Shown one piece after another: positions 1 through 59,213 of a stretch of DNA of 64,000 nucleotides. Where the stretch lies: contig NC_135257.1 in NCBI RefSeq assembly GCF_964204865.1, positions 16,182,001 to 16,246,000 on the forward strand, given 5' to 3'. Below the pieces are notes generated by a model. The model was not told where the DNA came from. It ran no database searches and worked only from the letters and a program-made list of their open reading frames with translations. The translations under genes were made by a program, and so were the position numbers. Position 1 is the first letter of the stretch. Each line of letters begins with the position of its first letter. Source of the stretch: Styela clava. Lineage: Eukaryota.

Positions 1-17
1 AATAATATTTTTCACAG

Positions 18-18900: not shown

Positions 18901-20918
18901 AATATAATCAATCACAACTTAATGGGTTGTTGCACCGAAAATACATTTCTCGATACTATTGATTTAACCACCACACGCATAGATGAATTATTCGTGATCC
19001 GAGCAAAAGTTTCATGATTTCAAGTAACTGCTATAGAATAACGAGATAATAGACAATAATGAAATATAATAATGCGAAAATAATGGATTTCGATAATATG
19101 CAGTTTCATAATAAGGTATAGTACGTCCGTGTGTACCGATATACACCATTTCTATACCATATACCAATTGTTTGCTTTGTTTCAGCGATAACAGTGAGCA
19201 AGTACAAACCATCATGAAATACAGCGACAATTCATATTACCGACTAACTTAACTAAATACCCACGTTCAAGTAAAAATAGAATACCATTTTCAACGTAAA
19301 CCTATATATTACTGTATTAAAGTAGAACGGTACTCACAAGCTTATATTATAACAGATTACTCGGCTATATGACTTTCTACTAACACTATCATTTACGGAA
19401 GCTAGTACGGAACAACTATTTCATTGTTTCCTATGCAAACAATATTTTCGCTCAGTTATTTAATTTAGACTCCAAAAGTAAATTTCTAATACGGCAGTTA
19501 GGTCATATTTTTCAGTGCTGTTTCTACACGACTTGGCAGTAATCAGCCAAAACTTTTAAGTCTTTGTTGGTCTGGTTTATGTTACATACCGAACATACTA
19601 AGATTACGCTAGCTATAGCGATTCATAATATCGTATTACGTTTCACGAACGTCGAAAACAGCGCAGCCCAATAATGCAAAAGTTGGACTTTATTTTAGAT
19701 ATAGAATGATTCATACACTTAGCGGAAGAATTTGATTCCGGTTATTCTCAAGTCCTTTGCAGCTTAATAATGGTTTATTATGCGTGGAAGATTTACAGAG
19801 GTAAATAATAGTTTCGATTTCGTTATTATGTTTGTTTAGCTGTGATCACACAAAAAGCCAGCGAAATATCATGCGGTTTATCAAATCGCATTAGAAAATT
19901 TGCTGAAAATCGTCTTCTTATTAGTACAGTAGCAACATATTCAGAATATACCAAAAATGGATCTTGTGCAGGCTCAAATTCATATATACAGTATACGACG
20001 TTTTTTTTTTTATATGTTTTCCACTCTTAACAAATCTATGCACAAGCTAGGTGAATAGCTATTATAATTTGAAAGAACCGGAGTATTTCCAGTTCGGTAT
20101 TGACAATTTACTTTATTGCACTCAGGGTGGGGTGGACGTCATGGGAATTTGGCCAAACGTCTGATGGTCCAAAGATGATTTAGCCTATGTGAATTGTGCA
20201 TTTTTAAAAATAAGGTAGTATAAGGCAAGTCAAAAAGTTAGTTCCGCATTTTATGACGCATCTAACTCGCCGCTCCGGACGAGGTTCTAAACAAGGATTA
20301 ACTTCGACTCGAATTCACAAATTTAATTCTGCAGTGTTTGGTCTGTCCATGGTTTGAATAACTAAGGAAGTCTGACCTTGGTTGCAGGAAACGTTATAGA
20401 ACGCGGTTTGCGTAAATGTGAAGCTAAACTTTTAAACCTCTAACACAAAATCATGAGAGGAGTAGTTTCATCAATTTCCAATGTGATAAATCCTACTATT
20501 CGACGCCATTAAGCCATGTCTCAACAATTCCGTTCCGATTAAGGCCGATTTGCGTATAATTCCTGGGAAAGCACCAATATCTTATCGCAGTATTTTAGCA
20601 CGCTATTGCGCACGACCATATAAAAATGCCGTAGTTTTTACATCAGACTTCGATATAGTGACGTTGATACAATATACACAAGCAATAAATATAGTCGTAT
20701 CACAAAAAATTCTTCAATTGAGCTTGTTTAGATAAAGCGAATGATTAGTAGTGTAATTTCATAGCAGAAATATTCACCCCATTTTGAACTGGTGTTACAG
20801 TTGTGTTTATTTCATAAGCAAAATCTTCGTATGGATTGCTCTTGACATCATTCATAGCATTTTCTGCAACACCCAGAGCGTTCAATTCGTCATCAAGCCA
20901 GGATAATTCAACGGCCAT
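12964..20918 (-). CDS. LPP: LPP/TRIP6/zyxin-family focal adhesion protein with three C-terminal LIM domains (~360 aa)
   Basis: Eight phase-compatible exons: 20918-20778, 17302-17165, 16796-16599, 15611-15494, 15096-14981, 14516-14386, 13893-13773 and 13083-12964. They encode the pre-LIM helix [21 protein letters not shown]1 [18 protein letters not shown]2 [31 protein letters not shown] and LIM3 [55 protein letters not shown], very close to vertebrate LPP. It is probably a pro-orthologue of LPP/TRIP6/ZYX. Confidence 0.93.
18664..18692 (-). other. Candidate alternative first coding micro-exon of the LIM gene (MLKFK)
   Basis: tttctcAG|ATTTAATAATCAGG ATG CTT AAA TTT AAG|GTAAGT: strong acceptor and consensus donor, phase 0, compatible with exon 17302-17165. 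Confidence 0.55.
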
Positions 20919-23900
20919 ATTCTTTTTTAAATCTGAGAAGGTACAGTCGAACAAAATGATTAAAATTGAAATAATACTCAAATTTTACTCTCGCCTATAC
21001 TGTATATTTCCATTGTTGTGCTCAATATAATTAGCTGTCAGAAAAGGTTAAATATTTTACGATATTACTTTCCCTGCCTTGAATATCTAACCTGAACTAA
21101 TTTATCATGTTGATTCGCTATTAACTATGCAGAAGGAGTAATGTAAACACTGTTAAGCTCCAAAAGTTGTAAACATGCAATGACATTAACTTATCAACAC
21201 TTAATCTGGAACGATGACTAATAACATATATCCTTCTAAAGTCTTACTCCGCTGTCTTGCTTGTTTCTTGTCTTATTCGGAACAAAATACTTCTTCGAAA
21301 CTCTTACTAATGATTTGACATTTTTCGAAATCAATATTTACTTCTACCGACTGTAGATGAAACTGAAATAATGTTTTTACCTTTATGACACAACTTTCGT
21401 CACGTTTCGACAATTTCACTGCATGGTATGACAGGATATAGTTCGGCCCTAGAACAGGAAAAACGTCATCAAATAGCACTTATGGATATAATAACTTCCA
21501 ATACACTAGGATTGGTAGATACGTTTTGGCGGCTATTCATACATTGACTGTTGGATATGTCGCATTTAGGAGAAATAACTAAATGAACCGGAATCCAGAC
21601 TTCATTTTACTGAAAATTATCCCGCCAAATGTCATGTAATAGAATTTTTTTTCATCGTGTAGAGAACGATTATGAAATTTGGTGTCGAGTTTGCTCTTAC
21701 GAAATGTCATCGTAAAAACACTTTACCTCTCTCCATGTTCACATAGTTTCCCATTTTAAAATACTGTATTTAAATAAATGTACTGGTAGCGAAAGAGACA
21801 TCAGACCTCAGACATCAATCTTATTCATGGGCTTGTTTGCGGCGATGTCTTGGCTGAAAATGATACTCGAAATAGTATTTTTTACCTCCATTTGTATGAG
21901 TGTGACATTTTCGAGCAATAAAAATATTCTAAACTATTTTATTTCAAAAGTAATGTGAATATTATTATATATATCTGTTACTATACGCAAACCGCTTTTA
22001 TCAAGGGACTTCCCATGAAGACGGAATCTCGACGATTAGATCCGCATGAGTTGCTATTTGACGGAAGAGGCACCGAGGAATTTAGGCGGAAGTGAGATAG
22101 CAATATTGGCAAGCAAGTAAAATATCCTGTCGTAACCGACAATATACTCACAAAGAAGGAAAATTCAACGAAAAGACAAAATAAATATGTGGTATACCAA
22201 TATCTAAAAATAGATACTCGCCTAAATCATCGGACTATAAAGCGTTCAGTATTCGTCAAATATTATAAATGATACAATCCGAGATCAATAAACTTTGTAG
22301 CCGGCGACAATTAATATTTCAGTTATCGATTGTCCGGTAAACCATTTCTTTTTATCGATTATTATCGATAGAAACTATCAAACATTTCGCTATCGTATTC
22401 TCATAGAAACTATTTTACGGGGCCAAACTTTTATTCTCGAATGCATAACGATATATATTCGCACGCATCGCTCGTTTTACATCTTTTATAGGAGGCGAAT
22501 ATAATCGACAGGGGAAAACCAGTGGAGGAGGTTACGAAGATTACTTCAAGCTCGCTTTGTGATGATATAGGTCACAGTTCTCACGAAATATTGCGTTGAT
22601 CGTTGTTCCATAGTAGTAGATTAGACAAGACGTGTTGTGCATTTCATGGAACGAGAGGATGGTTTTACGTCAGAAATCACTATTCTTTATCGTTTCTCTT
22701 TTCAAAAATATCTTTGTCTGAATATCACGTGTTCAATAGTAGGTCAATTAGTTGTTTCAATATGAAACGCATTTATTAAATCCTGCATTCACTCTATAGC
22801 TTAACATTTATGATGAGATGAATCCATTTAGATCCTTGAACAAAATGTAAACGTGATAAAACTAGAATTACGTCACGGAGGCATACACGAAAATGTATAA
22901 AAAATATATCTCAAGTAAACTGTGATAACGCACAAAATATGGCTCGATCCATTTTTAATGCAAGAACCCTGCGGACGCTGACACATTAATATCAACATAT
23001 ACACCGCTTTGAAGGGTAAATAACTACGAAAAAGTACCAAGCGGTGATTTAAAAACCGCTAACAAGCTTGATTAGAAGTGAAAATCAAGTGCGACTTTTG
23101 CGAATATTAATATTATCAATTCTCATTCTGTGTCTAAAACTTATCACCGCTAAAGACGATTGTTAAAGACGACCGACACGATCTACACGATCTGAAACAC
23201 TGCAAAATCTTCTATATATTATATACACACGACTATTAAATCTTTAGTTGACTTGATTTGATAGATTGAGTAGCGTACAATTAGTTTATAATTATTCGGC
23301 ACTTAACTACCAACTTCCGCCGTGTAATAAGTTAACACTGCCCGGGCATTGTACTCGTCGGTAATTTTTACCTACACGGAACTAATTAGCGGGAGACACT
23401 CTCACTTTTAAGAGAAGCTGCTGTTAAAACATTGCACATATGTTGATATCAACAGCTTCCTATGAAATTTAAATACAGCCGTGCGAACTGATTGTATTCT
23501 ATATAGGCTATTATATAATATAGCTTAGCCTCAATATGATCAACCTGTCTCAATATTACTTTCGATCATAATGTTATCAAATTAACAAGTAAATACTACT
23601 CGCAAATAAATTATCTGCAAGCGGGCCTTCGTTCCTGCTTTTATTTGTTATTGAACACAAAGTGGCCCTATGAAAAGTTTTGCTAAATTTTACGTTTTTT
23701 TTTTCTATTGTGAAAAATACACTCCATTCTGCTACTGATAAACCTAATAAATCTAACTTCAAATTTTCAGCGCTTCCAATTTGGAAGAAGGCTATTACTA
23801 TTCCAAAAAGGCTATTACATTCATAGATTTAATTTTCTCTGAGTTCTGTGGGACTCGATATTTCACCCTAAATTTTGCTGCTTTATTTTAATTTATTGGT

Positions 23901-34963: not shown

Positions 34964-36307
34964 TATTTATATTTGTAAGGTCCTCAACAGCTATTTAAAT
35001 CACTTCAATAGAATAGGGTTTTTGAAAATGCAGTATCTGATTTTTACCGCAGCTCTCCACGTCGGCGCATGACTAAAATTATTTAATTCATCAGTTTGTT
35101 CCAGTCTTAGTATTATAAATTAACTATAACTCCGGTGGCGCGCAGAAAAAGTGTTACATTTTATTACTATCCTATCAGCAGTTAGCATGTATTTTTTTGG
35201 TACAAAACGTATATTGGATCCAAAAAGCTCATGAACATAATTAAACTCTTTAAAACTTTTGCCATTGAATGGATATGGATATGGCTTGGTGATACGAACG
35301 TAAATATTTTGTTATTAGATGAAAATAAGCATTGCAACGAAGTTATTTTGATGTATGCTGAAATTTCACTGCATAAAATTTTAATTCAATAGATAGGTTG
35401 AAGAACAAAGATACCACAAACAAGTAGTTAAAATTCAATATTTAAAATATATAACGTTGCTGGTCCTCATAAGGTTGAATGACATTGTACCAATTTAAAA
35501 ACTAAGTCAAGTTTCATTACATTCGCTTTTTAAATGTAAGGTGTGTATAATTGTTGTTTTTTGTTCCCGTCTGTGTTGGGTTACAGCGTTTGCCACAACC
35601 CCTGAACACCTTCATTGTAGATTCGTATAGTTTGTAAAGCTGATGTAAAAACCTTGATGAATTTACACCTCATCTTATGCCGTTTACGCGGTGTATTTCT
35701 TGAATTGGCTACATTTGAATCCACTTATAAAGTATTTATTGATAAAAGTGATATAAAATTTCATTCGAGTGTGAAAAATCTTTATGGCTTGTCCAACAAT
35801 ATAATATAAGAACGCTTTTAGCTAAGTTTTGAAGATGAAAAAAAAAAATGGTGGACACAAAATGGGAGAGCATATCATTGTGACATGCAATACAAAATCC
35901 CGACAGCGACGTAACTTTTCCACGCTACGTTTATTTTGGAGGAAGTATTTCCCTGACAGGCCGTGAATTAGCAAGTAGCCATGCGATATCAGATTACGTG
36001 TGGTTACATTTTCAGCCAAGCTTTTTACAATAAAACTGCGGTACTTAAGATTTGGCGTGTTATCTAGCGTAAAGGTCCACACAAGTACTTCAGTCTAATG
36101 TTTCGGCAATCCAGTACTTCCGAATTGTAATATTGTGATGATTAGTGGTTGTGACATGAACTAAATTTATAGATATCTCTTTCGATTTGTTCTATTTTTG
36201 AAATGTTTTGGCGACTAGGTCCTCATTTTGCTTTATAAATATCATGATAGCATATATTTTCATTCAATACTCTAGTATCGTAAATTAAGTTATATTTTAC
36301 TTACTCA

Positions 36308-39300
36308 ATGCTGTTATTGCGCAGTGATAATCTACCAACTTCGGTCGACTCAAATCTTCCAGCGAGCAATACACTCGACCCAACAGCTTGCCGTGATCGC
36401 CGGGGCGAGGAATTTGAACCTGAGAATATTTTGCCCCAATCTCGTGCCTTAGACATGACCTTGATGAGTAAAGACGTCGGATCTGTGGACTGCAATTTGC
36501 CGAACAATAAAGCAAGTAGTTTTTCAGTCAAAGACATTTTGGACCTACCGGTTTCGGCTGGAAGAAGTGGGCTTTGCCACAACCGAGAACATTTTTTAAA
36601 GGGAGAAAATGGAATTCAGTCCGGAATGGGTCGCCATAATACAGATTACGGACACGCAAGTGAGAGAGGTGGTCTCAGATTTGGCCAAAATCAACATCTG
36701 GAATCGAGTGCTTTGTACTCAACGCCCTTCAAAGCTGAAGAGTTACATTACACCTTCCCTGGCAGAAGTTTGAATTATCCATCCACGAATTGTCAATATA
36801 AAACCTCTTCTTATCCAGAAAGTTACCGAGAGACGCCGTCATATTTTGATAAGGGCGAGGATATACCGACAAATCCACAGAATTTAACGCAAGCTGATAC
36901 CGTTAGTGTCGAACAATCTGGACCGACTAAATACGTTGAATATTTTGATTTCGACAAAACGTCACCAACATCCACTCAACCTCCGAAGTACGCGGAGATC
37001 GGTTATCTGGAAACTTCATCGGGAATGAGATTAAATTCTGTCGGGTCGCCTGTAATGTCAGGCTCGCCATGTTCGACAACGAATCACGATTGCTCTCCTT
37101 ACAACTCAGTCAGCTACAAACAAAGTTGTGTTGAGAATAGAAAAATCTTGGAGTCAAATTTTCATGAACCCCGAGATATTTTATGTGCTGGAAAAACGGA
37201 TATTTCAAGGTAAAGTTTATGAATTGAACTATTGAATAAAACCTGGAATCAGTTTCTTTAACAGTAACTTAGATATAAAAACCGTTTGTGTTTGAATTTG
37301 ACTTATTTTATGTAGCACATCAAAACAATTATTCTTATTTCTGCTTAAAAGTTTGTCTCCATCATAGGAATTCGATTCATTTGCCAAAAGTCTATAGTTA
37401 CTGCAACTAACATGCGCGGAAATTAGAAATAGATAAATTTCCTATTTTTTTAACATATTTAACATTTGTTAGATGGAGATTCTCTGATTAAATGTTCGGA
37501 AATTGGTAAAAACAATAATAGACAAAAACGAGTGTAAAGTGATAATTTATAAATCATATCCTCAAATGACGAACCAGATGCATTAGTAGAGCAATTGTGC
37601 AACATTTTTTGCGACAAGTTAGGAGAAGTTGTCGGTTGCGTAAATAGCTTCCAATCTCTGCTCTCATGGACGCCCGCCTGTGCGGTTCAACATCTCATGC
37701 TCCGAAAAGACAGAGAGCATTGTAATATTTTTTTTCTGAACAACTAGAAACATGCAATTAATTCTGCGTATCATTTCAATCACTAATATCTTATCCTCAA
37801 TGGTTTTATGCTCACACGTCTACAATTTTACTTTACATTTAGTTGATACAATATGTTAGTATGTGCGGATAAAATTGGACAAGTTTTTTCATTCTGAAAA
37901 TTTCGTTTTGAAGCGAGTTCAGAATAATTCCCTCTTTCACTAATTTTTGATAATCTATCATTTTAGTACACAAAACAAGCTTGATTCTGATGGAAAAGAA
38001 GAATATCCGGTATCAAATAGTGAATGGGATTCACAAGTCAATTTCACGAAACTGATTCCGCGTGAAAAGGAAGAGACAAACGAAGGTAATCTTTGAACTT
38101 AATAAAAAATGATAATTTCATATGTGAAAATACAACCACTTTTTAAAGGTCATATTGTTGTTTTTAAAAATTATCGTTATAAAGATACACGTTTAAAAAT
38201 ACGAATACATGGTGAATCAAAGAATAAAATTGCAAAAACTATAACAGTAATCGGTCCATAATTTAGAGGGGATTTAAATTAATGTCGGTCCACAAATGGC
38301 AGAATTGCAAGTTGAAGTACAGTGAATGTGTTGGCAAACTGTTAATGTCCGAATAGAGGTGTATGAAGATATGAGAATGTTTAAAATCTAAATGAAGACC
38401 AGTGTCAATCAGAATCAAATACATATTCATAAATTGCATTAGAAGCGATATTTCATGTTAATTTTTTGAAGATAAATTAATGTATGTATTACAATTTCGT
38501 AGCTTTTAGCTAATATTCTATGGTCTAAAAAGTATTGCACAAACTGTCTTTTTATGAAGTATTGCCGAGGAACAAAGTACGACCGTGAATATTATTTAGT
38601 CTGGAATTGTTCACCTGACCCGACCCGACTTACAACTCGACTTCAAATAAACAAATATTGAGGGCTCCAATAGTAGAGAATTGAATCTGCTTTGCCTCAT
38701 CTGTGTTGGTCATCTCAATTATCCAAAGAAAAATACTCATTTGACAGTATTAAATCAGTATTGTTGATGCAGCATCGGCCACCAGTGGAGGTCGACATGA
38801 ACTTTGGTTCATTCATGAGAAAAACATTTCGTACCGTTGATGCGTATGTATGTTTTACTTTCTCAAATAAAATCACGTTCTCGCAAGCAACATGCGACCG
38901 TTACTACCACAAAATCGCAACATAGAGCCGACTTTCTGCGCTACAGTAGCTTATCGTGAATGTAAAACAAATATTCGCACGATTTCAAATTATTGTCGAT
39001 CGTGCTTTATCATATTCGACATCATTATGGGAACCACCTTAACCGACGAACACGCTTTCTTGTTTACTAGACAGGTCCTCATAAACGAACCATTCCAGTA
39101 TCCAAAATCATGAGGATTACGTTTGGAATAAAATTAGAGTTTCGCAATTTCCTTAAACTGACGCATTCGTAAAGAAAAATTCATACGCTTAGCGGCGCAG
39201 AGCTGAGGATTTAAGATGAACAAGATGAAACATTAAATATGTTAGTTATATTCGCATTCTGAAAATAAAAATGACGGCTTCCAAACCGAAGCATATTTCT

Positions 39301-42300
39301 ACGAATAAAATGCCCCTCATTACGTTTATGCCTTGTACGGAACAGACGTTTAGAACCTCATGAAGAACTAATCTAAAATCGTTTCGAAATCTTCTCTCGC
39401 GGTATGTTTAGTTACTTTTCTCACATGAGTAGTATTGTTCTTAACTTTATTTGAAATAGTTTGAAAACACGCTATAGATTTCTCATTCGATTCGTCTGTG
39501 CTTTTTTCGTCAATTGTACAGTGAAATTTAGTAAAAGCAGTAACTCAAAAGTAACATTTTGCCCGGACCTTTGACCCTCTCTTTGCCCCATCAACCTTTT
39601 TCATTCTACCGCACAGACATACTTTTTCAAACGTGGTCCAACAATAAAAATGCAAGCCTCTGTTGCCACCGTGACAGTCCAGAGTATTAGCTACTGTTTG
39701 ATCAACAGTTAGTGCGACATGCACAATTAGATCTGCCTGTCTCGATCTAAAGGTCTTGAGATATGAGGTCGTTTCAACGAAATTGCTATTAATTAACTTA
39801 CTTTTCAAAATTTAAATTTCCACCGTATTTGTGACATCTTCGCTCAGTATTAACGTAATAAAATCAGCTATAGTAAGTATCGTATGAACAAATGAGTACA
39901 ACTTCACTGGCGCCTACTTTTTTTAAATATTATTTTACGGGAAACCCCTTTGCAATACCAAATTTAAAGAATGATACTCGGAGGTATATAAATTTTTACA
40001 AACAGCAATTTCGCATGTATTCTCGTCATAGCGGCACCGGATTAGTCGTTTTGTCGGCAATTGAAATAACCCGATTTTCACAATTATTAAATTCGAGGTT
40101 TAAGTGCCATAATGTTGGGTGCTCTGTTTGGGGTTGTAATATATAAAGAAGAATATGTTTAGGCTTTGACGGAAACAGTTTACGTATTCTATTGTGGATG
40201 AATATTCCAGAAACAGTCATTTGGGAATGACCAAATTTATTTTCGAAAAGTCATTCAAGAAATCAGCCAATGGTGATAAACACCACGACTTGTGTGGCTA
40301 TATTTGCCCAACTCTTCCGTAAAACAAAACGAGCTAAACAAGTATAAACACGAACTGGACGGTATATTTGCATAGCAATGTTTTCATATCCAAAATGGGA
40401 CAACAGGTCGACACGCACGATGAAGCCGTTGGACAAAATGGCCGTACTGTCGACTTTATTCTCCAAAGACACGAAAATTATTGTATTTCTTTCCTTGTTG
40501 CGATTACTAAAACAATTTCTTGATTCAAGGTAGGGATTGGAAAATCGTAATCCTGTGATTTTTATATGAAAATTTGCTCATCTAAGATTATATTAAATGC
40601 ATGCTTGCATCCGATCCAAGAACAATGGCAGAGATAGATAGGGATCGTGAGACGTCAAAGTGCTTTGGGGGTAACATGTCATTCATTAAACATATTTTGA
40701 GAATTAGATTCTATCTTAAGCACTGTGAAGGATCAACAGACGATGCAAGAGGTATGTAGGTGATAATCGATAAACAGAAAATATCTTGCGCTTTGTGGAT
40801 ACATTTGATATACGTTATTATGTCCAATGGTTTCAGTAACCTAGACTTTGACTTTCTATATACACTATGTATAAATATTTTACTCCATCACTATATTCTG
40901 TCGCACATTTACGAACATGGGGTTATTAAAATGAGTTGAACTTGCGGTTACCAAACGTTCCCACGCGCCGCGCCACTTTCTCCGTCCGTGAAGTTTTCAC
41001 TTCTCGAGTTGTTTGATGTGGCTACATTACCCAACACATCTTAATGTCGTCTTTGGTCACGGTCACCGACGCCATTTAAAAACAATGTCGCGTGACGTCA
41101 TATAGAACTTTCAAGACCGTCAAAATAGGACCATTTTGATACCAATTTCCAAGAGTTTAAGGTCAATGGTAACCGCATTTTGAGGCGTATTTATAGAAAG
41201 TTTCCCGATGAAAATGTTTGATCAGAAAGTAAATTCATGAACGTTTCAAAACAAGAATTTAAAACGTGATAAATATAATTTTCAACCTTGTTTAACAGCC
41301 GATGCAACATAAAGAGTGCCGGACAAACTTGGTCTCATCGCAACATTGATAACAAAAATTTCATAACAATTATTTTGCTTTTCAATTGTTTATGTTTTGC
41401 ATTAAAAATTGAGACAAACTGGCGGCGAGTAAATGCTTAGTACAAATTACCTCATGCATTTGGATGAAAATAATACTGAATTCAACTTGAAACGATGTTT
41501 TGTATACTGGGCGTGAACGATGTGCATTAATAAACACATAAAAATGAAGGAACGAGTCAGTTGAGAGATACGAGATAAGACTGATGTCTATAATTAAAAG
41601 AGGATTCATTAGGCATGAATCAATGTCCACTACCTCATCTCTTTCCACGAAATAGAAAGTATATCAAGTAAGCTTTTGTTAGATCACAGTCTAACTTTCT
41701 CAGACACAGCATAATATAACTTAATAGAACAACGAAAGGACTTGACGTTTAGTATATACAACACCCTAGTACCCTCTGTACCTCATCAAATATGACAAAA
41801 TTGAGTAAACGCTAAACAAAACTGGAGAGTGTGTCCGGTCTGAAACCTGTTTAGCCTTATTGGCTGATTGTAAAGAACATTGTGTGTTCCCTCTGTGTGA
41901 AACACGTTAGGTGACGAATTTGATGAAACCATAAGAATCATATTGTAATTCCAAAACATAGATTTGAGATTGTACTAAATTATTCTCATGATCAATTTCT
42001 TTGAATACGCTTCATCCATTTCAGATTTTTTCTATGTCACTGTGGCATAGAATCAGTTTAAATGGGTTACATTGGTGGTGTTAAGTGAAAGGTCACATTG
42101 TCACTTTATGGTGAACAAGGTCTCAAAGTTTATGCAATGTTAAAAATAGCGCCCGTATCGTTGACTACTTTATATACTGATTTCAAACCATGTCATAATA
42201 GAGAAGGAAAAAAAAGAATACAATAATCTAATAACTGTGTCTTTCTCTTTTCTACAATTACCCAATCCATAGGTAACTGGCGATAATCAGAGACATAACT

Positions 42301-43638
42301 CGACTTGGGCTTTTGGCCTAACATCTGGCTGTTGTTTGAGATCATCAATAAACATTTTTTCCCGACAAAACGCATGACGTATAAAGGCAATGAGAGATAT
42401 TTAATTGGTAATGCTGAGTGGTCGTCTCAATTCACGGGTTAAAAACATTATTTTTTGTTTCGCTTTTAGAATTGTACATAAAATTTGCTTCAAATTTTAT
42501 TACAGACGAAGCTCCCGATAGCACTTCTTGTTCGGCGGAAAAATCACCACAAACTGAGGATGAAAATGATGAAGAACAGCCGAACGATTCTGAAAGCGAG
42601 CAAGGAAAGAAAAGAAAAAGAAGAGTTCTGTTTTCTAAAGCACAAACATATGAATTGGAAAGAAGATTTCGTCACCAGAAATATTTGTCTGCGCCAGAAA
42701 GAGAAGCCTTAGCCAATGCTATTCGTCTAACTCCTACACAGGTATTCCAAATAATTCAAATGAAATTTTAAAAAAAGTATCGATAGTCGCGAATAATTGC
42801 TTCTGATTTCAGCAGCATGAAATTGAGCCGAGGATAAACATAACGCTAACATAATGACTAACACTAATATATCTTTTAGACAGTGTGTAGAAATCACATG
42901 AGTTAATCAATATTAAAATTAAATTAAAATAGTTTCATGTCCAACTTGAGCTTCAAATTTCTAAAAAACGTTAGTTGAATCATTTTATTTTTATTTCAAA
43001 ATATATTTAGAATACCTACTCGTGTTGTGATAGTGGAGAACTAAACTTTATACTAATTATATACACAAAATTTCCAGGTGAAAATATGGTTCCAAAACCA
43101 TCGTTACAAAATGAAAAGATCGAAACAGGACAAGGGCAGCGGTCTGGGGGGTTTTGATCACATGGGAACATTGCAGTCACCCAGAAGAGTTATGGTTCCT
43201 GTGTTAATAAACAACGGAAAACCTTGTCATACCTCAAGTCATTATCCCGGCCTTTCAATGAATCAAGACATTCCGATGAGTCCCTCATCTGGTTCGGCAG
43301 TGTACGGTCCGCCATTTTACTATGAGGAATCTTCGCGTGGATATTCTCACATGCCGCTTGGCTTAGATATGAGACACTCCCTATCAACCGGAGCACATCC
43401 TGCGACCCACCCTCACACGCAATACATCACTGGTAATCAGCAAGGTAGTTACGGTTATGACCCTTCTCACTTATCAACGTACCCTCAACGCTACTCTTCG
43501 GCACACACAGGCTCATCCAGCCAATATGCATCATGCAGTCCGCCTTATCAGGGTTCAAGTGCTAACTTGCCCGGACAGAGCAGTAACCATTGTGGTTTAG
43601 AATCACAATCTATGCCACAACAATGGCCTACGTGGTAA
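36308..43638 (+). CDS. NKX2-2: NK2.2-family homeobox transcription factor (Nkx2-2/2-8; vnd orthology group), ~605 aa
   Basis: Exons 36308-37209 (TN/eh1 motif [12 protein letters not shown]), 37967-38085, 42506-42741 and 43078-43638, with intron phases 2, 1 and 0 all consistent. Homeodomain [58 protein letters not shown] has Tyr54 and the Nkx2-2-type SKAQTYE. NK2-SD is [17 protein letters not shown] and the C-terminus is QQWPTW. The start ATG is uncertain (an alternative lies near 36455). Confidence 0.93.
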
Positions 43639-45601
43639 AACGCATTTATTTATTTGTATTGTAAACTAGTTGAAATATAATGCACTCGTTACGAAAATGC
43701 CGGTTTAAATTAGGAAAGATTCACACAAGAATCTAAAGATTGGGAGCCCAATTTCAAGCTTAGGTTCACGTATATTTTTCTCATCTCATTGTCTCACTGA
43801 TAGGACAGAAATTTATCCCGAATGGCAGCTTACTGAGTGAACTCTTCAAGCATTTCAATACACAATTCAGAAATATTTGAACTAAAATACCCATCTTTGT
43901 CGACAGCGGAAAAAGCTGAAAAATTTTTTTTTAATTTATTGTTTCTTTGGACAAGCATTTTTTCACAAAACAAGCGATTGTTTTGAAAAAGTGTGAATTG
44001 AAATTCACGATTTCATTCAAAGACTATATTTTCTTGATATATCGAGATTTTGAGTTTTTTCACCCGAGTGTTACTGCATCAAGATTGCGGGCAAACCTAG
44101 GTGTTGGTAGCTTGGCACTCGTGGAAATAACTCATTTGACATTACGTTAAAAACCATAATTATTTAACCTTCTAATTTTGCTTGCATTCTCATTACATTT
44201 ATATTTTTATGGTTTCAATGATATGCCGTTATACGAAAACAAGAATAGTTGTCATTTCGGAAATTAAACACCGGACCAATTCACATTACCGATAGACGAT
44301 GTTCAGGCGTCAATATTATTGGCATCGAATAACCCAAAGAAAATAACAGTAACAGTTTCATTTTAATTGAAACCAATGATTATATATATATATAGAAAGC
44401 TCTAGCGATTTTAACTTGCGTGTAGTAATCAAACATACCGTTCGAACACATGCGGCTTTAAGGTTGAAACTTGATATAAGAAATTATGAATATACTCATG
44501 ATAGAAAACCAACTGAAATAACTTCCGAACTGTCCCATAAAAATGAGCATGTCTGGTATTTTACTTTATTTTCTTGCTGCTTATTTTTTCACCAATGAAC
44601 GCAAAATAAAAAAAATCGCGGCCATTTTTATAATATTTATTTGTAATTCTGCTCCTTCTGCTCGAAATTCTATCAGAAACAAAAAATAGGATTTTGTTGC
44701 TTTTGTATTGTCTTTATTTAACGAATAAAATGTAAGTGTAATCTACCTAAGCAAGGTTTATATATGGATTGCGTACTTAAAAAGCAAGTTCCATCGATAA
44801 TCCGTGCTTGGTGAAATATAAAGTGTGCGTTTTATATCGAAAATGCGAATTTTCTTTCTATGATAGTGCGTAGTTTTTTGTGTTTTTATTTTTTTGCAAT
44901 AGGTTAGTTACAATCATTTCTTCAATGTTTTATGCAATTCATGTATAATTTCATAAAATACATTAAACCTCTTGTAAAATTCTGAAGTATTATTTTGAAC
45001 AAAGGGTAGACTTTCATAGAAATGGTGGAATAATTACAAACAAGGACGAATCGAAGCAATCCAATCTTTTTGTATTCTCAATATAATAGCGCCACGGGCT
45101 ACTAAATTTCTTTAGGTCAATAAAAGTTGTCTTTACAAAAAGATGAAAATATGGGTACATGATTTGACACGCATGACGCTGACAAAGGTGTTTGCGTTGA
45201 TTATTATTCCATTTTCATAAACTAATCATTAATTTCCAATGAAACCGTATATATATCTAGGCAAAACTATTAACAATCTATCAATTTCAAAAACAACTGT
45301 GAATTATGACAAAGAAATGTGAAATAAGAGACGAAAACGATTATAACGAATTGAAAAAACATTGAACGCCAATCATCAAATGAATAATAATTTACTCAAT
45401 CAAATGTTTAATTTAATGTTTTTGGATGAGAATCAAAAAAGAGGGAAAAGATTTGATGAACGTGATGAAAGTTGCAAAATGAAAAATCAGCTCTGTACTC
45501 GAAATTATCTAAATAAAAAAGGGTCTTCCTAACATGTTTTACGATGATGTGGACTACGCAATAATATAAATAATTCTAAAAACAAGACAAGTTCTCTCGC
45601 A

Positions 45602-48561
45602 TTAATCCAAGTACATCAACAGAAAAATTAACTCTCCGATTAGAAGAGAGTACTTTGTCATATAAGTCGTTGATTCGCCTGTAAAAATCAAATTATTGAG
45701 TGAACAAATAAACACCGAAAGTAACAAGAACAGAATATAAAATTTTTTACCTGCATTAACATCGGTGAAATCAATATAGACAGATTCAACGTATACTCTA
45801 TCACCAACTGTGACTTCACAAGACAACATACCGGATGACATTATTTCTTGTTCTTCTTCTTCCGTAAATACTTCCGGGATCACAGTTTGGGTTGATTCAT
45901 CAACCACGGAACCTAAATATAATCAAATAAACCAGAGTTTGTTAGACTGATTAATAAATGCAGCGTTCCTAAATTATGTATAGTGAGAAATTGACATCGT
46001 ATCAGCTAGTTTTCAGTGAAAAGTCCAGTACAATGCAGTCCTTTGAGCGCCAGTTCAGAAGGCGTATCTCAGAATAATATTAATATATACCTACTACTAC
46101 ATACCCACAATACAAGACTAAAAAGTGCGGAATGGTGAGTTACTCATGGGAAGTTGATATGTTCTGTTTCATGATCGTATAGAATTATAGATTGTTGCTG
46201 ATACGCGATTTACAAAGGTCTGCATAATAATATCAAGCTGGCATTAGTGTGTAATTTATTTTGATCAACCCACCCCAAAGCAACCGATTATTTTTTCATG
46301 TATACCAGAGGTTCCGAATTATGTGGTTATAGAAATCTTGATGAGGTTGGCTGTTATTTACGAGATCCCACAATAAATTTATGAGAATAGGAACAAATAA
46401 CAAATTGTTACTCACCGATTTACGTTCATGAGTAAATTAAAATTACCTTATTTATGACTCGGATGTATTTGCTGCTTTGTATTCAAAAAATATTTAAATT
46501 GCAATTTTCAAATTTTATTAATGCCATTATTACTTCTTTGGACAGTTACAAAATTAGCCAAGTCAGTATTTAAATGAGTTGAAAAATAGCTCGCGGGCTC
46601 AGGGGCTCCGTGTGGAGCACTTTGGGAACCTATTATGATGTATATAAAGTACTCAAAGAGTAAACTCAATAGGACTTTGCGATTTACATAAAATAAAATG
46701 ATACCATTCATGGAATCCGTATCTGAAATTTCTATAATCGTCATGTTGCTGATTTCATCAATGTCTTCACTTGTCGTTTCGTCAGTCTTTGACTGATACA
46801 GTAAACTCACATCCAATTCGATAGTCGATGTAAGATTGTGTAGTTGGTCTCTTGTCTAAATAACACATTATGCCGGTATAAATGTGGTAGGCTAGCACTG
46901 ACATGGCACATCTGTTGTGACCGAAATGTGCACAGTTTGGCAAGTGACTAAGTCAAGTCAATGAAACAGGTAAGTGACAAAGAATTTCAACAAAGCGTAA
47001 GTTCTCGGGAAATGTCGTGAAAGATTTTAATTTACAACCGGTAACCTCAACATGTGAATGGATATAAAGTAGTTCATTATAACTTTTGACTCAACGAGCT
47101 CAGACAAAAAGAGCTTATTGCGTTCATTCGTAATAATAGCTAGAAAGTCGTGCTAAAAGCTCCCCGAATACCAAACCTGAGGGGTTTCGGTAACATTCAA
47201 TAAATTTGTGAAGCCATCGTCCTCATTCCAAAGCCATCGTATGGTCGCAGCTGGTTGGCTATTAATGACAGAGCAAGACACTAGATGCGACAATTGCATA
47301 TCGAGCCCAATGCCAATCGAACCGTCATTCCAAGTCATTTCTCGGTACGGCGTGTTTACCGTCATGTAAATGTATTCTGGTTCGACTATAAAATATAACG
47401 TTATTATAAAGATGTTTTACAATTGATGTAGGATTTACATATATATCCCGGATAGGATTTACATATTTATTCTTATGGAGAGAAAAACTAATGAGACGGC
47501 TCATTCATGTGGCGAACCACGGCCTGTCGCCCGGTTACCAGTCCATGTAGGGCATGAGATTAGTTTGCCAGTTATTTGTTTCCAGAATCCAGATGCATAA
47601 ACTTGATGGTAGTGGAAGCCCGAACAGACCACAGGTTACGTGAGCCACCCCACTACTGTACTCGGTTTATATTTCTACTTCCAGCATTGAACTCACCAAA
47701 TGTTTCCAATCGAATGCTGACGGGTTTAACTCCAGCAACATCACATGTGACAACGCCGGCATCAGCTTTGTTATAGTTGAGCAAAGTAAAACTAAAGTTC
47801 CCTCCTTCTGGATCAGCTCCTTTTATATCATATTTAGATCGATCAGCGGGATCCTATAAAAAATGTATTTTCTAACGTATAAACAAATGTAATATAAAAT
47901 GTATGGTTTGAAATGTAGTAACTCCGAATATTCATATCTTGACAGAGACAAAAATTTAAAAAAAAATAACATCGACTAGAGTTAGACAGTCATGACTAGA
48001 TTTGATAGAATAATATTCGTTGTCAAATAGATTTCAGGAAAAATAAATTATCAGCATGGGCTGGGAATTTTCAGTCGTATATATATATATTCGAATCGTT
48101 CCAGACAAAATTTCGGATCGCCGCCATCTTTTTTTGTCCGTCAAAGGTCGAGGTGAATCTCTCAATTTATCGAAGCCATATTTTTATAATGCAATCCTGG
48201 CATAAGACTCTTTTTTTGCAGCGAGTTATTGATGAAACGTGTTTCCTATTGTGACCCATTACAATAAAAAGTTCAATACATATCTCCCAAGTGTTTGAAG
48301 TTCGATTTTATTCGAAAAAATATACGCTCCAATTCTGAAATTATCAGGTATCCGAAAATGCCCAGACCTATTTATCATCAATTCATCTTACCGAAAACAC
48401 CGTTGTTGGTGGCGCAACGTTGGCAATCTGTCTATCATTATGATCCCATCGCACTGTTTTCTCTTTCAGGTCCGTAGCTATACAAACGATACTAACATTG
48501 AAACCTTCGGTTGCGTATAAAACTTGTCTCGGTGGTGAGATACTGATCTGTGTTGATGTCA
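45602..48561 (-). CDS. Immunoglobulin-superfamily cell-surface protein (V-set plus C2-set), probably GPI-anchored. The signal-peptide exon is uncertain.
   Basis: Phase-compatible exons 48561-48392 (NVSIVC..VRW), 47853-47697 (FSFTLLNYNKADAGVVTC), 47385-47177 (VSCSVINSQPAATIRW), 46855-46705, 46629-46534, 45912-45751 (GMLSCEV) and 45678-45602 (hydrophobic end YSLLIGELIFLLMYLD*). A candidate leader exon is 49191-49143 (MSSLLLLTAEICSNNL, phase 1). Confidence 0.8.
47429..47653 (-). mobile_element. Diverged SINE copy (middle plus 3' tail) in an intron of the Ig gene
   Basis: Joins the tail sequence seen at 54547-54668 directly to the middle sequence seen at 57536-57612 (ggaagcc..gaccacaggttacgtgagccaccc), which gives the uninterrupted SINE structure. 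Confidence 0.8.
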
Positions 48562-49899
48562 CTGAATTAATAATGTACAATGATATATGAATTAGCAACG
48601 TCAATGAAACGCAGTGTCAATATAGAAATCAATTACGCCATCACAGTTTCTAGTACGCATATTGTGAGATTGTATATCGGAACTCCGTTGACTGGGAATT
48701 GAGATAAGCCAGTGGAGTGCTTACATCAGTATATAACCTTTAATTTGCCACACTGATGATCGTTAAGCAGAATTTCAAATTGTTGAATATTCAAACTCGT
48801 TGTAATCAAATTTATCTTCTGTATTTTTATAATTGATTAGTTTGAGGTAAAAAGAAGGAAGCATATTTTTTCTTCAAAAATTTATATCAACGATAAAGGT
48901 AGCAGAATATTATAAGTACGTTTAAAGTTTCTACAACAAGTGAGTTACAAGATAAACTGTTTAATTATAAGTTTAATGTACCACGTGAAATTCTTTCAAC
49001 TCCTTCACAAATAACATAACAGGCAAAATATTCGAAATAATTTTATCGTGCTATTTTTATATGCCACAAAATACGAAATAACTTTAACATAAAGTCTTTG
49101 AGAAAATGTGACTATCACACTATTATAACTGAAAAGTATTACCAAGATTATTTGAGCAAATTTCAGCTGTCAATAGCAATAAGCTCGACATTATTAATTT
49201 AATAAACTTCATTTTGATTTGCAGAGTTGTTATCCTGTGTACCTGGCAGACAAACATAATAAAATGAGTATTCTTTCTTGGTATAACTGAACGTTAGTAT
49301 CGTGAAAGACATCCCGCTGGCATTTTGGCGTCCATTGACTGTCTCGAGCAACACAAAACACTATTAAAAATGATCACCCGTACAAACATACATTCTTAAT
49401 AACGACAGTGACGTAAAATATTGAGATGTTAACTAATTTTAAGAAATGTAAGTAAATTTTACCGATTGGGGATATATATATTTTCGTTTGGGAAAAAATG
49501 AAACGTCTTTACAAGCCGCCGTCTTGGTGATGAATTATAAATATAATGACATATATGCCACAATGGAACTTGAGGGAGGTAAAACGTCATGTAATTAAAA
49601 TGAGTACTTTACTCATATTCAACTAAATGGCACAAATGAAATGAGCACACACACAATCAGCCCGCTACTACATGCCCGTTTTCTCGAAAAAAGACTAGCT
49701 TTATGAAGCAATATCAAGGTACCCTGGTAGCCGCGAATGGCAAATCAAAATTAATTTGATAAAAATTATTATGTAGCTAGCTGTTTATTTGTCTGTTTCT
49801 TATTGTCGCTCACGATAGAACGACCTGACCTAAATTAAAAATAATTTAACAACAGGAAAAATATATATATATTCATTATCTTTCATTTATTGGCATGGC

Positions 49900-54546: not shown

Positions 54547-54673
54547 AGAATAGGATAGGATTTACATATTTATCCCGGGGGAGAGGAAAGCCGATAAGAC
54601 GGCTTATCCATATGGCGAACCACGGCCTCTCGTCCGGTTACCATTCCAAGTCGGGTATGGGATTAGTTTTACT
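54547..54673 (-). mobile_element. 3' half of the tRNA-derived SINE, separated from its head by the LINE insertion
   Basis: (ATCCT)n tail on the minus strand and homology to 8382-8503 and 47429-47565. Confidence 0.8.
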
Positions 54674-57530
54674 ACTACTTTATTAGTCTTTTACCATCAT
54701 TTTCTAAGATTCTTGAAAAAATAATGTATAGTAGAATGTCAAACTACTTTGAAACTAACAATGTTTTCCACTCGCATCAATTTGGTTTCCGCAAGCATCA
54801 CTCCACTGCTATGGCTGCTAATGTTTTGGTACACAAACTGACCAATGCGTTTGAATGCAAACAACATGCAATTGGAATATTTCTTGATATCTCAAAAGCT
54901 TTTGACACCATTGACCATTCCATCCTCTTAAGTAAGCTCTATCACTATGGAATTAGAGGCGTTCCATTCAATTGGATCAAGAGCTACCTTCAAGACAGGA
55001 AGCAAATTGTGCAATATGACAACTCATTCTCTACAAATATTTGTGTCATGAAGCACGGAGTTCCACAAGGATCTTTACTTGGCCCATTATTTTTTCTAGC
55101 TTACATTAATGACATGTCCAGGTGTCTGAAATCCTCTGAGTCGATCATGTTTGCTGATGACACTAACTTGATTCTTCATGGGGAAAACCTTGAAGATCTA
55201 TTCACAGTTGCAAACCAAGAACTAACCAACATTCATAGATGGATGTTAGTTAATAAATTATCTCTGAATGCTAACAAAACTAAATTTGTATTATTCCATC
55301 CAAGCAAGCATAAAAGTGTGAGTTGTTCAAAAAAACTACTGCTCAATGGCAATGAAATTGAAAGAGTGAAAGAAATAAAATTTCTAGGAGTTATCTTTGA
55401 TGAAAATCTGTCATGGAAATCACAAATAATGCATGTTATTGGTAAAACAAAAAGAAACCTAGCAGTTTCTGCCAAAGTATCCCAGTGTGTTGACCAATCA
55501 GCTCTACTAGCAATGTTTCAATCATTACTACTTAGCCATATTCGATATTGTTGTTCAGTCTGGCTTCATGGTAATAAAACACTTGTCTCAAAACTGCAGA
55601 GTATTTGTAATAATTTTCTAAGAATAGTTTTTGGTAAAAGAAAACGTGAAAGTGTAGACTCTTACTTCAAATCACTAAATATACTTAAGGTTGAAGATAT
55701 GATGAAATTTGAAATACTATCTCTAGCTCACGACTTCCATAATAATGCGCTGCCCAATTGCTTTAATGACATACTTGTCAAAAATACCTCCAACCGAAGA
55801 AGTAGTTCTGATTTATTCGTACCTTTCATGAGTAAATCCGTGAGTCAGCATTCCTTGTCTTTTACTGGTCCCAAACTTTGGAATTCTCTTCCCTTAAATT
55901 TGAAGACGTTAAAGTCCAAAAAATCTTTTCAAAAACAAGTCAAGTCTCATTTAGTTTCCAAATATTAAATATTAAAAATTACTACTGGTGGTATTCGATG
56001 ACAAAAACTTGGGACACTCCACACTTGCACATTATTGTTTTAATGAAAATGTTGAACAGCTATAATAATATTGTGCCACGACTATAATAATATCTTGCCA
56101 CGACTTGGCCAGAACTAGTCCAGCACCAAAGAAATGGTATTGTGACATGCATGAGTATATATATATTTTTTTAAATATATAGGTAGCTAACGTACTCGGA
56201 TGATATTTTCTTTAAATAACTGCACACATTCTATCACTTCACGCTCGTGTTTTTATCTTTTTCTAGCTGTGATGTCCCTATCATACACGCTTGGTCTTAT
56301 GTTTGAGTGGTGGTATAAGGGTTGTAGATAGTACAATATTGTTCCTGCAAGGTTACTAATTATTGCAACTAGGCGAGCAGTAGAGCTATGTTGGATTCTC
56401 CCCTTCAGATTTTAATTTGCTGTGGGTCATTGTAATTGGATGTGGTTTTTATATCATTTATGTATGCATGCGTTTTATGTTAAGGCATGGTGTTTGAGTT
56501 GACTTGTTGGCCAAGGTATAGATAGTAAAATTTTGTGTGTTTTTTGCATGGTGTGATAAATTTTTTTCTGTCCCAAGCAGAATGTCATCATAGATCATCT
56601 ATCCATCGCTATATAATGACAATACATCCCATTTAATTAAACAATTATTTTTTGCCTGTAATAAATAGTTCAGAGCGTTCCCCTTCACCCAATCATTGAA
56701 ACATCTACTCGCAGTTTTATTTTTTGTTTTTCAGGTTACTTCAATGTGATTAAATGAAGTAAAACACATAAGGAAAAAAACAAAAAAAGACTCCCGATAT
56801 CCTGTGAAATAACAACCTCATTCCCATATCCTTGTCTGAAATCAATACCCAAGAATGAAAAACCTCACTTAGACCCTTTGTAACCAATTTATTTCCACAT
56901 CCTACTTTACTTAATTATAGTAATTTTACTGTTACCGGTAACTTAATTACTTATTACAATCTGGACTATAATTTGGCAATAATAGGCTCTAATTTGGGGA
57001 ATGAAATGGTCTCGCCCACCTCTTCATGCACCCAATTCTGGCAACTTTGGTTGGGCAACTTGGCATTTGACTCCAACTATAATCAGCTTGGCAATATGTT
57101 TTCAATAGAATCTTCCTTTTATATACCTAATTAACGATTAGAAGAGCGATCAATTTGGCAATGGCAACCATTACAAAAATATCAATATGGTGTGGCAGAT
57201 AATTTTCTTTTCTAGTATTTATTTTTTTGTTTACTGTATAGTATACCCTAAATTTATCGCGTTTCATTCTTACTTAAATAACTTCTCAGTGGTTGTGTGT
57301 GGCTGGTGGGTGCATGTGAGCGTGTGTGAAATAACTTGATAATTTTAGGTGAGTAAACACGTACCACTTCCTCTTGGCAAAACCTTTCATCTTATATTTT
57401 GTACGTTATAATCCTTATCTAAGGTTTTGTTTGCTCCCCTGATTTCATAATCAGATTTTATTTATTTGTTTTTATCTGTCAAATGTATTGTTATGCTGAT
57501 TATGGAGTCGAAATAAACTTATACTTATAC
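54674..57530 (+). mobile_element. 5'-truncated non-LTR retrotransposon (CR1/L2-group LINE)
   Basis: RT homology starts abruptly at 54682 (ISLLPSFSKILEKI) and the frame is open to 55968. An inferred ~1.5-kb 3' UTR ends in AATAAA (57512-57517) plus a (CTTATA)n tail. Candidate TSD TTACT at 54669-54673 and 57531-57535. Confidence 0.8.
54682..55968 (+). CDS. LINE ORF2 reverse transcriptase domain and C-terminal region (endonuclease missing through 5' truncation)
   Basis: QFGFR, FLDISKAFDTIDH, GVPQGSLLGPLFF, FADD, KFLGV and GPKLWNSLP motifs, with no stops or frameshifts over ~428 codons. Confidence 0.93.
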   Translation: MSLLPSFSKILEKIMYSRMSNYFETNNVFHSHQFGFRKHHSTAMAANVLVHKLTNAFECKQHAIGIFLDISKAFDTIDHSILLSKLYHYGIRGVPFNWIKSYLQDRKQIVQYDNSFSTNICVMKHGVPQGSLLGPLFFLAYINDMSRCLKSSESIMFADDTNLILHGENLEDLFTVANQELTNIHRWMLVNKLSLNANKTKFVLFHPSKHKSVSCSKKLLLNGNEIERVKEIKFLGVIFDENLSWKSQIMHVIGKTKRNLAVSAKVSQCVDQSALLAMFQSLLLSHIRYCCSVWLHGNKTLVSKLQSICNNFLRIVFGKRKRESVDSYFKSLNILKVEDMMKFEILSLAHDFHNNALPNCFNDILVKNTSNRRSSSDLFVPFMSKSVSQHSLSFTGPKLWNSLPLNLKTLKSKKSFQKQVKSHLVSKY

Positions 57531-58645: not shown

Positions 58646-59213
58646 GTGCGTAATTGCGAATGCGATGTACCAAATTGAAGCAATGTTTTAAATCGCACTC
58701 ATCTACAAAAACACAACTAACTTATGTTGCCATTTCGTTTTTATATATATATATTGCAATGAGGCTGTGCTTTCCAGATAAGCAAGTAACTTTATTAGTT
58801 ACTTTCAGCTATTTCCCCATTGAAAATTCTGCTTTTAATTGCTGGGGTATTCTATCACCTAACTATTATAATTATTAATTTCAATGCATAACAAACTGTG
58901 ATGCTATGTGTATCTAGAATGAATTTTGCAGCCTAATGTTCCCAGGGCGATTGAGCGTGCTTGAATCCCAGCAAGTCTCATTAGCCCTACGCTATTTTTA
59001 GTCAGCTTGAAACTTGATAGAGGCCGACTCAGCAGCTAAACATTCTTCATAACTAGCCTACCGCCTCACCGATATCCACAGGATTTGTCTGTTTTTTTTT
59101 CTATGCGAATTATTTGTTTAATTTCTACATTTACCGTTTACGAATTTCCACTTTAATATTAATGAGGGATATGTTTTATACATTTCACAGCATAGGCTTC
59201 ATGTGAAATCAAT

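What the first reader, a model, noticed from the sequence alone, without database searches (positions are those of the whole stretch)
36308..43638. A clear Nkx2-2 orthologue in an apparent tunicate genome
Seen: four Nkx2-2 hallmarks are present: [10 protein letters not shown], a homeodomain with SKAQTYE and IRLTPTQ, the NK2-SD and a QQW(P)TW terminus. Established: Nkx2-2/vnd patterns the ventral nerve cord and endocrine gut cells. From memory, which needs checking, the Ciona NK2 genes are usually described as Nkx2-1/4 and Nkx2-3/5/6 without a clear Nkx2-2. Inference: if so, this lineage retains a gene lost or unrecognisably diverged in the model ascidian, which matters for reconstructing ancestral chordate neural and endostyle/gut patterning.
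Basis: partly seen in the sequence, partly recalled or inferred. Interest (0 to 1): 0.7.

Follow-up and report, generated by a model that had tools for sequence, protein, structure and literature searches.

The report
Sea squirt Nkx2-2 homeobox gene
This is an intact, spliced sea-squirt gene that is very likely the animal's own copy of the nerve- and gut-patterning gene Nkx2-2; other sea squirts carry it too, so it is largely ordinary, and only its possible loss from the laboratory species Ciona remains untested.

Summary
Four exons (36308-43638) encode 605 aa, identical to the RefSeq protein 'uncharacterized LOC144425861 [Styela clava]'. All three introns are removed in public contigs, and one contig carries a spliced-leader-like 5' end. 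A cellulose synthase gene 36 kb upstream independently marks a tunicate. The homeodomain is 53/60 identical to vertebrate Nkx2-2 and falls in the Nk2.2/vnd clade (SH-aLRT 95, bootstrap 93), while separate Nkx2-1/4-, NK4- and NK3-like genes lie on other contigs. An AU test on 77 columns did not reject an Nk2.1 placement (p=0.28). No Ciona or Phallusia protein appeared in four searches, but the list cut-off of the best-aimed one also excluded amphioxus Nkx2.2, so loss in Ciona is plausible and unproven. It likely works as a Groucho-recruiting NK2 transcription factor; its tissue is unknown. Verdict: new member of a known family, interest 0.27.

The parts
36274..36275 (+). AG acceptor at which a spliced-leader-like sequence is joined (likely trans-splice site), 32 nt before the ATG
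   Evidence: One contig of run X2 has 23 foreign letters before 36276 (table 5c); the first 19 occur 439 times in G000 (control 0), 130 times followed by GT, many in a tandem array on C8; absent from the window. The longest X10 contig starts at 36274.
36308..37209 (+). Coding exon 1 (902 nt): start codon, TN/eh1 motif, long poorly conserved linker
   Evidence: joined to exon 2 in contigs of 4 of 8 runs laid
36521..36550 (+). TN (tinman/eh1) motif [10 protein letters not shown], predicted Groucho/TLE-binding
   Evidence: aligns with the TN motif of vertebrate, hemichordate, echinoderm and insect rows; the Groucho role is recalled knowledge
37967..38085 (+). Coding exon 2 (119 nt), needed to keep the frame
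   Evidence: both flanking joints seen in 4 of 8 runs laid
42506..42741 (+). Coding exon 3 (236 nt): acidic stretch and homeodomain residues 1-44 (from 42610)
43078..43638 (+). Coding exon 4: homeodomain residues 45-60, NK2-specific domain (43177-43224), Ser/Pro/Tyr/His-rich tail, QQWPTW end, stop
   Evidence: intron 3 removed in 7 of 8 runs laid
43639..45129 (+). 3' untranslated region (far end not fixed)
   Evidence: spliced contigs run on to 44929 (X4), 44964 (X7) and 45129 (X5); AATAAA at 44605, 44724, 45119

Best explanation
This is an intact, spliced four-exon homeobox gene of a styelid sea squirt that is very likely the ascidian orthologue of Nkx2-2/vnd and is predicted to act as a DNA-binding switch that recruits Groucho co-repressors. 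Shown: gene structure, splicing, motifs, separate paralogues, an orthologue in Clavelina. Inferred from family knowledge: the homeodomain with Q50/Y54 binds the NK2-type site, the TN motif recruits Groucho/TLE, and the NK2-specific domain with the C-terminal tail modulates activity. Inferred and untested: the most likely role is specifying hormone-producing cells of the juvenile/adult gut (about 50%), ahead of neuron specification in the nerve cord or ganglion (about 35%). The gene is ancestral in ascidians, so any absence in Ciona would be a later loss.
For: Homeodomain identity to the query: 47-55/60 for 17 Nk2.2/vnd rows, 46-49 for 3 vertebrate Nk2.1 rows, 43-44 for 6 NK4 rows, 36-39 for 4 NK3 rows. 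At the 5 positions where all 4 Nk2.1-type rows share a residue against the Nk2.2 consensus (1, 10, 13, 21, 24) the query has the Nk2.2 state at 4. ML trees put query + Clavelina inside Nk2.2: SH-aLRT/bootstrap 95.4/93 (homeodomain) and 93.9/94 (plus NK2-SD). PDB ranking: vnd 108 bits, TTF-1 99, Nkx2.5 84 or less. G000 has an Nkx2-1/4-like gene on C4, an NK4-like and an NK3-like gene on C2, so those slots are filled; their TN motifs end differently (DILSPL, DILNLE) from the query's DILDLP. The query ends in W-x-x-W; 287 of 397 stored Nk2.2-type proteins end in a close Trp pair by my pattern, against 0 of 12 NK4-type. Clavelina P0126 shares H22, K24, A33, N36 and the VMVP variant. Splicing.
Against: The AU test does not reject a tree with query + Clavelina joined to Nk2.1 (5.7 log units worse, p=0.28, 77 columns), and in that rebuild the Nk2.2 branch had bootstrap 84, unstarred. 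K24 is the Nk2.1 state. The Nk2.1 sample was thin (3 vertebrate rows + the C4 gene; no amphioxus Nk2-1 or scro). No synteny support: the gene is on C9, while Nkx2-1/4 (C4), Pax1/9-like (C2) and FoxA-like (C6, C10) genes lie elsewhere. No tissue or stage information was obtained, so the biological role rests on analogy.
Confidence: 0.88

Rival explanations
1. It is a tunicate duplicate of Nkx2-1/4 that has drifted towards Nk2.2-like residues, working as a second endostyle/pharynx factor.
For: AU p=0.28 for the Nk2.1 placement; K24 shared with Nk2.1 rows.
Against: 4 of 5 diagnostic positions are Nk2.2-type, both ML trees favour Nk2.2, the TN motif and Trp-ending match Nk2.2, and the C4 gene already carries the Nk2.1 signature.
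Confidence: 0.06
2. The orthology is right but nothing is new: Ciona and other phlebobranchs also have Nkx2-2, merely diverged, short-modelled or filed under another name.
For: Orthologues in two ascidian orders; PMC5882950 lists Nkx2.2 for Botrylloides and states it for Oikopleura. The cut-off (181 bits) lies above amphioxus Nkx2.2 (174) and Drosophila vnd (171) on the same profile, and the library did not even list Clavelina P0126.
Against: No row named Ciona or Phallusia among the 120 listed in each; none of the homeodomains printed has the ascidian A33 variant. Clavelina was found at rank 9 of 120 from the Styela sequence alone. The preprint 10.1101/152983 names no Nkx2 gene among the cluster genes identified in C. 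robusta, though it omits Nkx2.1 as well.
Confidence: 0.4
3. It is a fast-evolving tunicate-specific Nkx gene (of the Nkxtun kind, names recalled) that resembles Nkx2-2 by convergence.
For: The protein is twice the length of vertebrate Nkx2-2 (605 against 273 aa) and has derived residues shared only with Clavelina among the printed homeodomains.
Against: The end branch is short (0.1 changes per column); TN, homeodomain, NK2-SD and Trp-ending all agree in order with Nk2.2. No Nkxtun sequence was available to test directly.
Confidence: 0.03

Closest known systems
Nk2.2 family: vertebrate NKX2-2/NKX2-8, amphioxus AmphiNk2-2, Drosophila vnd (family as defined in PMC2211742, passages)
   Same: TN motif, homeodomain 53/60 to vertebrate Nkx2-2 with Q50, H52, Y54, NK2-specific domain, Trp-containing end, same order.
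   Different: 605 aa; homeodomain changes H22, K24, A33, N36, A37, S59, K60; NK2-SD reads [10 protein letters not shown]; intron inside the homeobox; likely leader trans-spliced; not linked to Nkx2-1, Pax1/9 or FoxA.
Styela clava LOC144425861 (XP_077971734.1, P0001)
   Same: 605 of 605 residues identical.
   Different: Named 'uncharacterized protein' by the source; no family name given.
Clavelina lepadiformis LOC143471709 (XP_076826025.1, P0126)
   Same: Sister of the query in all trees (86/89, 92/96); shares H22, K24, A33, N36, VMVP and a W-x-T-W end.
   Different: 38% identical overall, 53/60 in the homeodomain; also unnamed by its source.
Botrylloides leachii g03254 'Nkx2.2' (PMC5882950, File S5)
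   Same: An Nkx2.2 listed beside a separate Nkx2.1 (g155778) in a stolidobranch ascidian.
Nk2.1 family (NKX2-1/TTF-1, NKX2-4; the C4 gene of G000)
   Same: NK2-class homeodomain with H52 and Y54, NK2-SD, K24.
   Different: R1, Q10, V13, K21 and a DILSPL-type TN motif are absent from the query.

Membership tests
NK2 class (Nk2.1, Nk2.2, Nk4) | Homeodomain with Tyr54 and Gln50 | tested here: met
   Pfam PF00046 E=1.3e-19
NK2 class (Nk2.1, Nk2.2, Nk4) | N-terminal TN/eh1 motif and NK2-specific domain after the homeodomain | tested here: met
   NK2-SD has 4 changes in its 12-residue core
Nk2.2/vnd | Homeodomain groups with NKX2-2, AmphiNk2-2 and vnd in a tree | tested here: met
   95.4/93 and 93.9/94; 84/95 in the rebuild
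Nk2.2/vnd | The alternative placement in Nk2.1 is rejected by a topology test | tested here: inconclusive
   AU p=0.282, 77 columns, 34 rows
Nk2.2/vnd | Diagnostic residues K1, K10, T13, R21, R24 | tested here: met
   4 of 5; position 24 is K, as in 1 of 17 Nk2.2 reference rows
Nk2.2/vnd | A separate Nk2.1 gene exists in the same genome | tested here: met
   G000:C4 about 9.355-9.362 Mb
Deuterostome pharyngeal cluster (Nkx2.1, Nkx2.2, Pax1/9, FoxA and others) | Physical linkage of the cluster genes | tested here: not met
   C9 against C4, C2, C6/C10; Pax1/9 and FoxA were recognised by recalled domain signatures; slc25a21, mipol1, egln3, dhrs7 not searched
Nk2.2/vnd | Expression in ventral/medial nervous system or gut endocrine cells; TN-dependent repression | not testable with these tools
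   run labels are coded and contigs give no tissue
Nk2.1/scro | R1, Q10, V13, K21, K24 and DILSP-type TN motif | tested here: not met
   1 of 5 residues; TN is DILDLP
Nk4/tinman | P4, R52, C56 in the homeodomain | tested here: not met
   query has R4, H52, M56; the C2 gene has the NK4 state
Tunicata (host) | Cellulose synthase with a C-terminal GH6-like domain; spliced-leader trans-splicing | tested here: met
   GT2/Cellulose_synt in L066 just upstream and GH6 E=3.3e-4, below Pfam's cut-off, at window 2-403; leader-like array; source name of P0001

The most novel reading that the evidence does not exclude
Nkx2-2 was kept, with an ascidian-specific homeodomain and NK2-SD signature, in stolidobranch and aplousobranch ascidians but lost outright in the Ciona lineage. 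Ciona's nerve-cord and gut patterning without Nkx2-2 would then be a derived simplification, and Styela or Clavelina would be where to test whether the Nkx2-2 ventral-neural and enteroendocrine programmes date to the tunicate-vertebrate ancestor.
Probability: 0.5. Interest if true: 0.45.

Novelty: new member of a known kind. Interest (0 to 1): 0.27.

Why it matters
Statements about what tunicates lack are often made from Ciona alone. An unnamed but clear Nkx2-2 in two ascidian orders means the gene was in the ascidian ancestor and can be studied in Styela, for which single-cell data sets exist. If Ciona has lost it, conclusions on neural-tube and gut-endocrine evolution drawn from Ciona need that caveat. 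Lineage-specific homeobox loss is common in tunicates and the presence of Nkx2.2 in a related ascidian is already tabulated, so a specialist would find this useful rather than surprising.

Tried and rejected
Three-exon model without 37967-38085: 15 stops, rejected. Search for a Ciona/Phallusia orthologue: no such name among the 120 rows listed in each (of 1628 hits; of 1421; of 2000; only 7971 candidates scored, lengths 305-1059), nor recognisable among the 150 unnamed rows (of 16713); I named only 8 of those through, others were named. Power is low, so this is not treated as proof of loss. No holder on record as RNA was listed: no evidence either way. Runs X4, X5 and X7 show no cover of exons 1-2; contigs cannot show absence, so I draw nothing from it. 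Depths were not used to rank expression. 8 of 15 listed runs were laid. The closeness of query + Clavelina to teleost Nkx2.2b in the trees is read as convergence at a few sites (support 86/81 and 0/75). Synteny with the pharyngeal cluster: none found. Literature: 10 searches and passages of 15 papers gave no explicit statement on Nkx2-2 in Ciona; the amphioxus genome paper was not held. Supplement searches found no Nkx2-2 row in PMC6952182 (12 of 14 files), PMC13671656 (one file unreadable), PMC9953650, PMC10980280 (file cut when stored) or PMC12212465; these are selected-gene tables, not inventories. Supplements of the bioRxiv Styela endoderm atlas were not seen and may bear on expression. 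The protein atlas gave no answer. No earlier finding of the scan concerns this gene.

Full report
Observation. With GT..AG introns at 37210-37966, 38086-42505 and 42742-43077 the four exons give 605 aa with a single stop; leaving out the 119-nt second exon gives 15 stops. The product is identical to stored protein P0001, which its source names 'uncharacterized protein LOC144425861 [Styela clava]'. Motif coordinates: TN 36521-36550, homeodomain 42610-43125 (split), NK2-SD 43177-43224, QQWPTW 43618-43635.

Transcription. Of 15 runs listed (none on record as RNA) I laid 8. Contigs skip intron 1 and intron 2 in 4 of 8 (X1, X2, X3, X10; three coded studies) and intron 3 in 7 of 8; X11, which covers all 30 bins, shows none of these joints. 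One X2 contig carries 23 foreign letters before 36276, right behind a genomic AG. Their first 19 occur 439 times in G000 (reversed control 0), 130 times followed by GT and many of those in a tandem array on C8 with about 1.6 kb spacing, as expected of spliced-leader RNA genes (inference). The last 4 letters are unexplained, and the junction rests on one contig of depth 5.

Host. Besides the source name of P0001, the gene ending at window 403 has a GH6-like end (E=3.3e-4, under Pfam's cut-off) and, in the neighbouring stretch L066, a GT2/cellulose synthase exon (E=1.9e-16 and 8.6e-7). That fusion is the tunicate cellulose synthase (recalled). The 'not a tunicate' refutation fails.

Which NK2 gene. 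A search of G000 with the first 45 homeodomain residues gave 16 matches; the next best are an Nkx2-1/4-like gene on C4, an NK4-like gene on C2 and an NK3-like gene on C2 (names from my reading of the domains and the tree). In a 34-row set the query matches 17 Nk2.2/vnd rows at 47-55 of 60 positions, 3 vertebrate Nk2.1 rows at 46-49, 6 NK4 rows at 43-44. It has the Nk2.2 residue at 4 of 5 positions that separate the two families. ML trees place it in Nk2.2 with SH-aLRT/bootstrap 95.4/93 (60 columns) and 93.9/94 (77 columns). Against this: a rebuild gave 84 bootstrap for the same branch, and the AU test did not reject an Nk2.1 placement (p=0.282). The Nk2.1 sample lacked amphioxus Nk2-1 and scro. 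PDB ranks vnd/NK-2 first (108 bits), TTF-1 next (99), Nkx2.5 lower. PMC2211742 (passages) defines Nk2.2 as NKX2-2/NKX2-8 with vnd and AmphiNk2-2, and warns that trees of these families are unstable and that synteny resolves them. Synteny gives no help here: Pax1/9-like is on C2, FoxA-like on C6 and C10, Nkx2-1/4 on C4, this gene on C9. Taken together I put orthology at about 0.9.

Other tunicates. Clavelina lepadiformis LOC143471709 (P0126, 555 aa) came up at rank 9 of 120. It has the TN motif, a W-x-T-W end and shares H22, K24, A33, N36 and the VMVP form of the NK2-SD with the query; A33 was seen in no other homeodomain printed. So the gene and its signature go back to the common ancestor of stolidobranch and aplousobranch ascidians (inference). 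PMC5882950 (passages; File S5 read whole; figure not seen) lists B. leachii g03254 as Nkx2.2 by best BLAST hit, beside g155778 as Nkx2.1, and says that Oikopleura has Nkx2.2. PMC9303981 (one passage) names an NKX2-2 among homologues expressed in Botryllus brain; I could not check which gene that is.

Ciona. No listed row or 41 is named Ciona or Phallusia, and none of the homeodomains has the ascidian signature. This is weak: on the profile amphioxus Nkx2.2 scores 174 and Drosophila vnd 171 bits, below the 181-bit end of the list; one search did not list Clavelina itself; no call showed any Ciona protein as a positive control. In print, the preprint 10.1101/152983 (passages) names no Nkx2 gene among the pharyngeal-cluster genes identified in C. 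robusta, but omits Nkx2.1 too; PMC3836708 (passages) calls one Ciona gene NKX2-4 in a table and Nkx2.2/2.4 in the text. Passages of PMC6050708, PMC3856589, PMC6466738, PMC9953650, PMC13671656, PMC10980280, PMC5995219, PMC12212465 and 10.64898/2026.01.25.701569 say nothing on Nkx2-2 in Ciona or Styela. That Ciona inventories list only Nkx2-1/4, NK4 and tunicate-specific Nkx genes is my recall and comes from no call. I put true loss in Ciona at about 0.5.

How it likely works. The recognition helix and Q50/Y54 are unchanged, and the derived residues lie at positions 22-37 and 59-60, so binding to NK2-type sites is predicted (family knowledge). The TN motif is predicted to recruit Groucho/TLE, making it a repressor of alternative fates, with the NK2-SD and the tail modulating activity (recalled from vertebrate Nkx2-2 and vnd). 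Tissue is unknown. I favour gut endocrine cell specification after metamorphosis (about 50%) over neural specification (about 35%); this is analogy, not data.

Verdict. A real, spliced gene, very likely ascidian Nkx2-2, unnamed in its database record, present in at least two ascidian orders and already tabulated for a related species. New member of a known kind; interest 0.27. The open point worth a short follow-up is the genome-wide test in Ciona.

Noticed in passing
window 42504 (exon 3 acceptor); runs X4, X5, X7; L070-L074, L078: In all 3 runs laid from coded study P3 a contig joins 28 foreign letters to the exon 3 acceptor. They match a 631-nt long terminal repeat (6 genomic matches, none in the window) directly before an AG|GT donor. 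One copy flanks frames with protease, RT, RNase H, integrase and a weak glycoprotein-B-like match. Likely a polymorphic LTR element spliced into exon 3; a stop precedes the junction in the homeodomain frame, so such an RNA would likely give no homeodomain protein.
   Followed up: partly
G000:C8 about 4.23-4.58 Mb; L075: Tandem array (about 1.6 kb spacing) of the leader-like 19-mer followed by GT: candidate spliced-leader RNA genes. About 300 further dispersed copies lack the GT, and some lie in pairs about 6.5 kb apart, as if captured in repeats.
   Followed up: partly
window 2-403 and L066:5232-6053: 3' end of the tunicate cellulose synthase gene (GT2 plus GH6-like tail), 36 kb upstream of Nkx2-2.
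   Followed up: partly
window 59196-59852 (+): Single open frame of 219 aa with a MAGE homology domain, E=9.8e-31; likely the NSE3/MAGE gene.
   Followed up: no
window about 14295-20984 (-): Exons of a LIM-domain gene (E=3.9e-8 for one exon), zyxin/LPP-like by recall.
   Followed up: no
window about 45605-48616 (-): Exons with weak immunoglobulin-domain matches (best E=2.5e-4), tail to tail with Nkx2-2.
   Followed up: no
window 54667-55965 (+): Reverse transcriptase frame of 433 aa (E=1.1e-34), likely a non-LTR retrotransposon fragment.
   Followed up: no
window 2610-4214 (-): 535-aa basic, Ser/Arg-rich open frame with no convincing Pfam match (best E=0.007).
   Followed up: no
L069:2-616 and 2339-3160 (-): Two neighbouring intron-poor scramblase genes downstream of the window (one scanned, E=1.8e-75).
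   Followed up: no
L014 and L015 (G000:C3 2.774 and 2.781 Mb): Two near-identical homeobox copies 7 kb apart: recent tandem duplication or assembly duplicate.
   Followed up: no
L063-L064 (G000:C4 9.355-9.362 Mb): The Nkx2-1/4-like paralogue has a strongly eroded NK2-specific domain (RRVTVPELIAAKEN) and is the longest branch of the tree.
   Followed up: no
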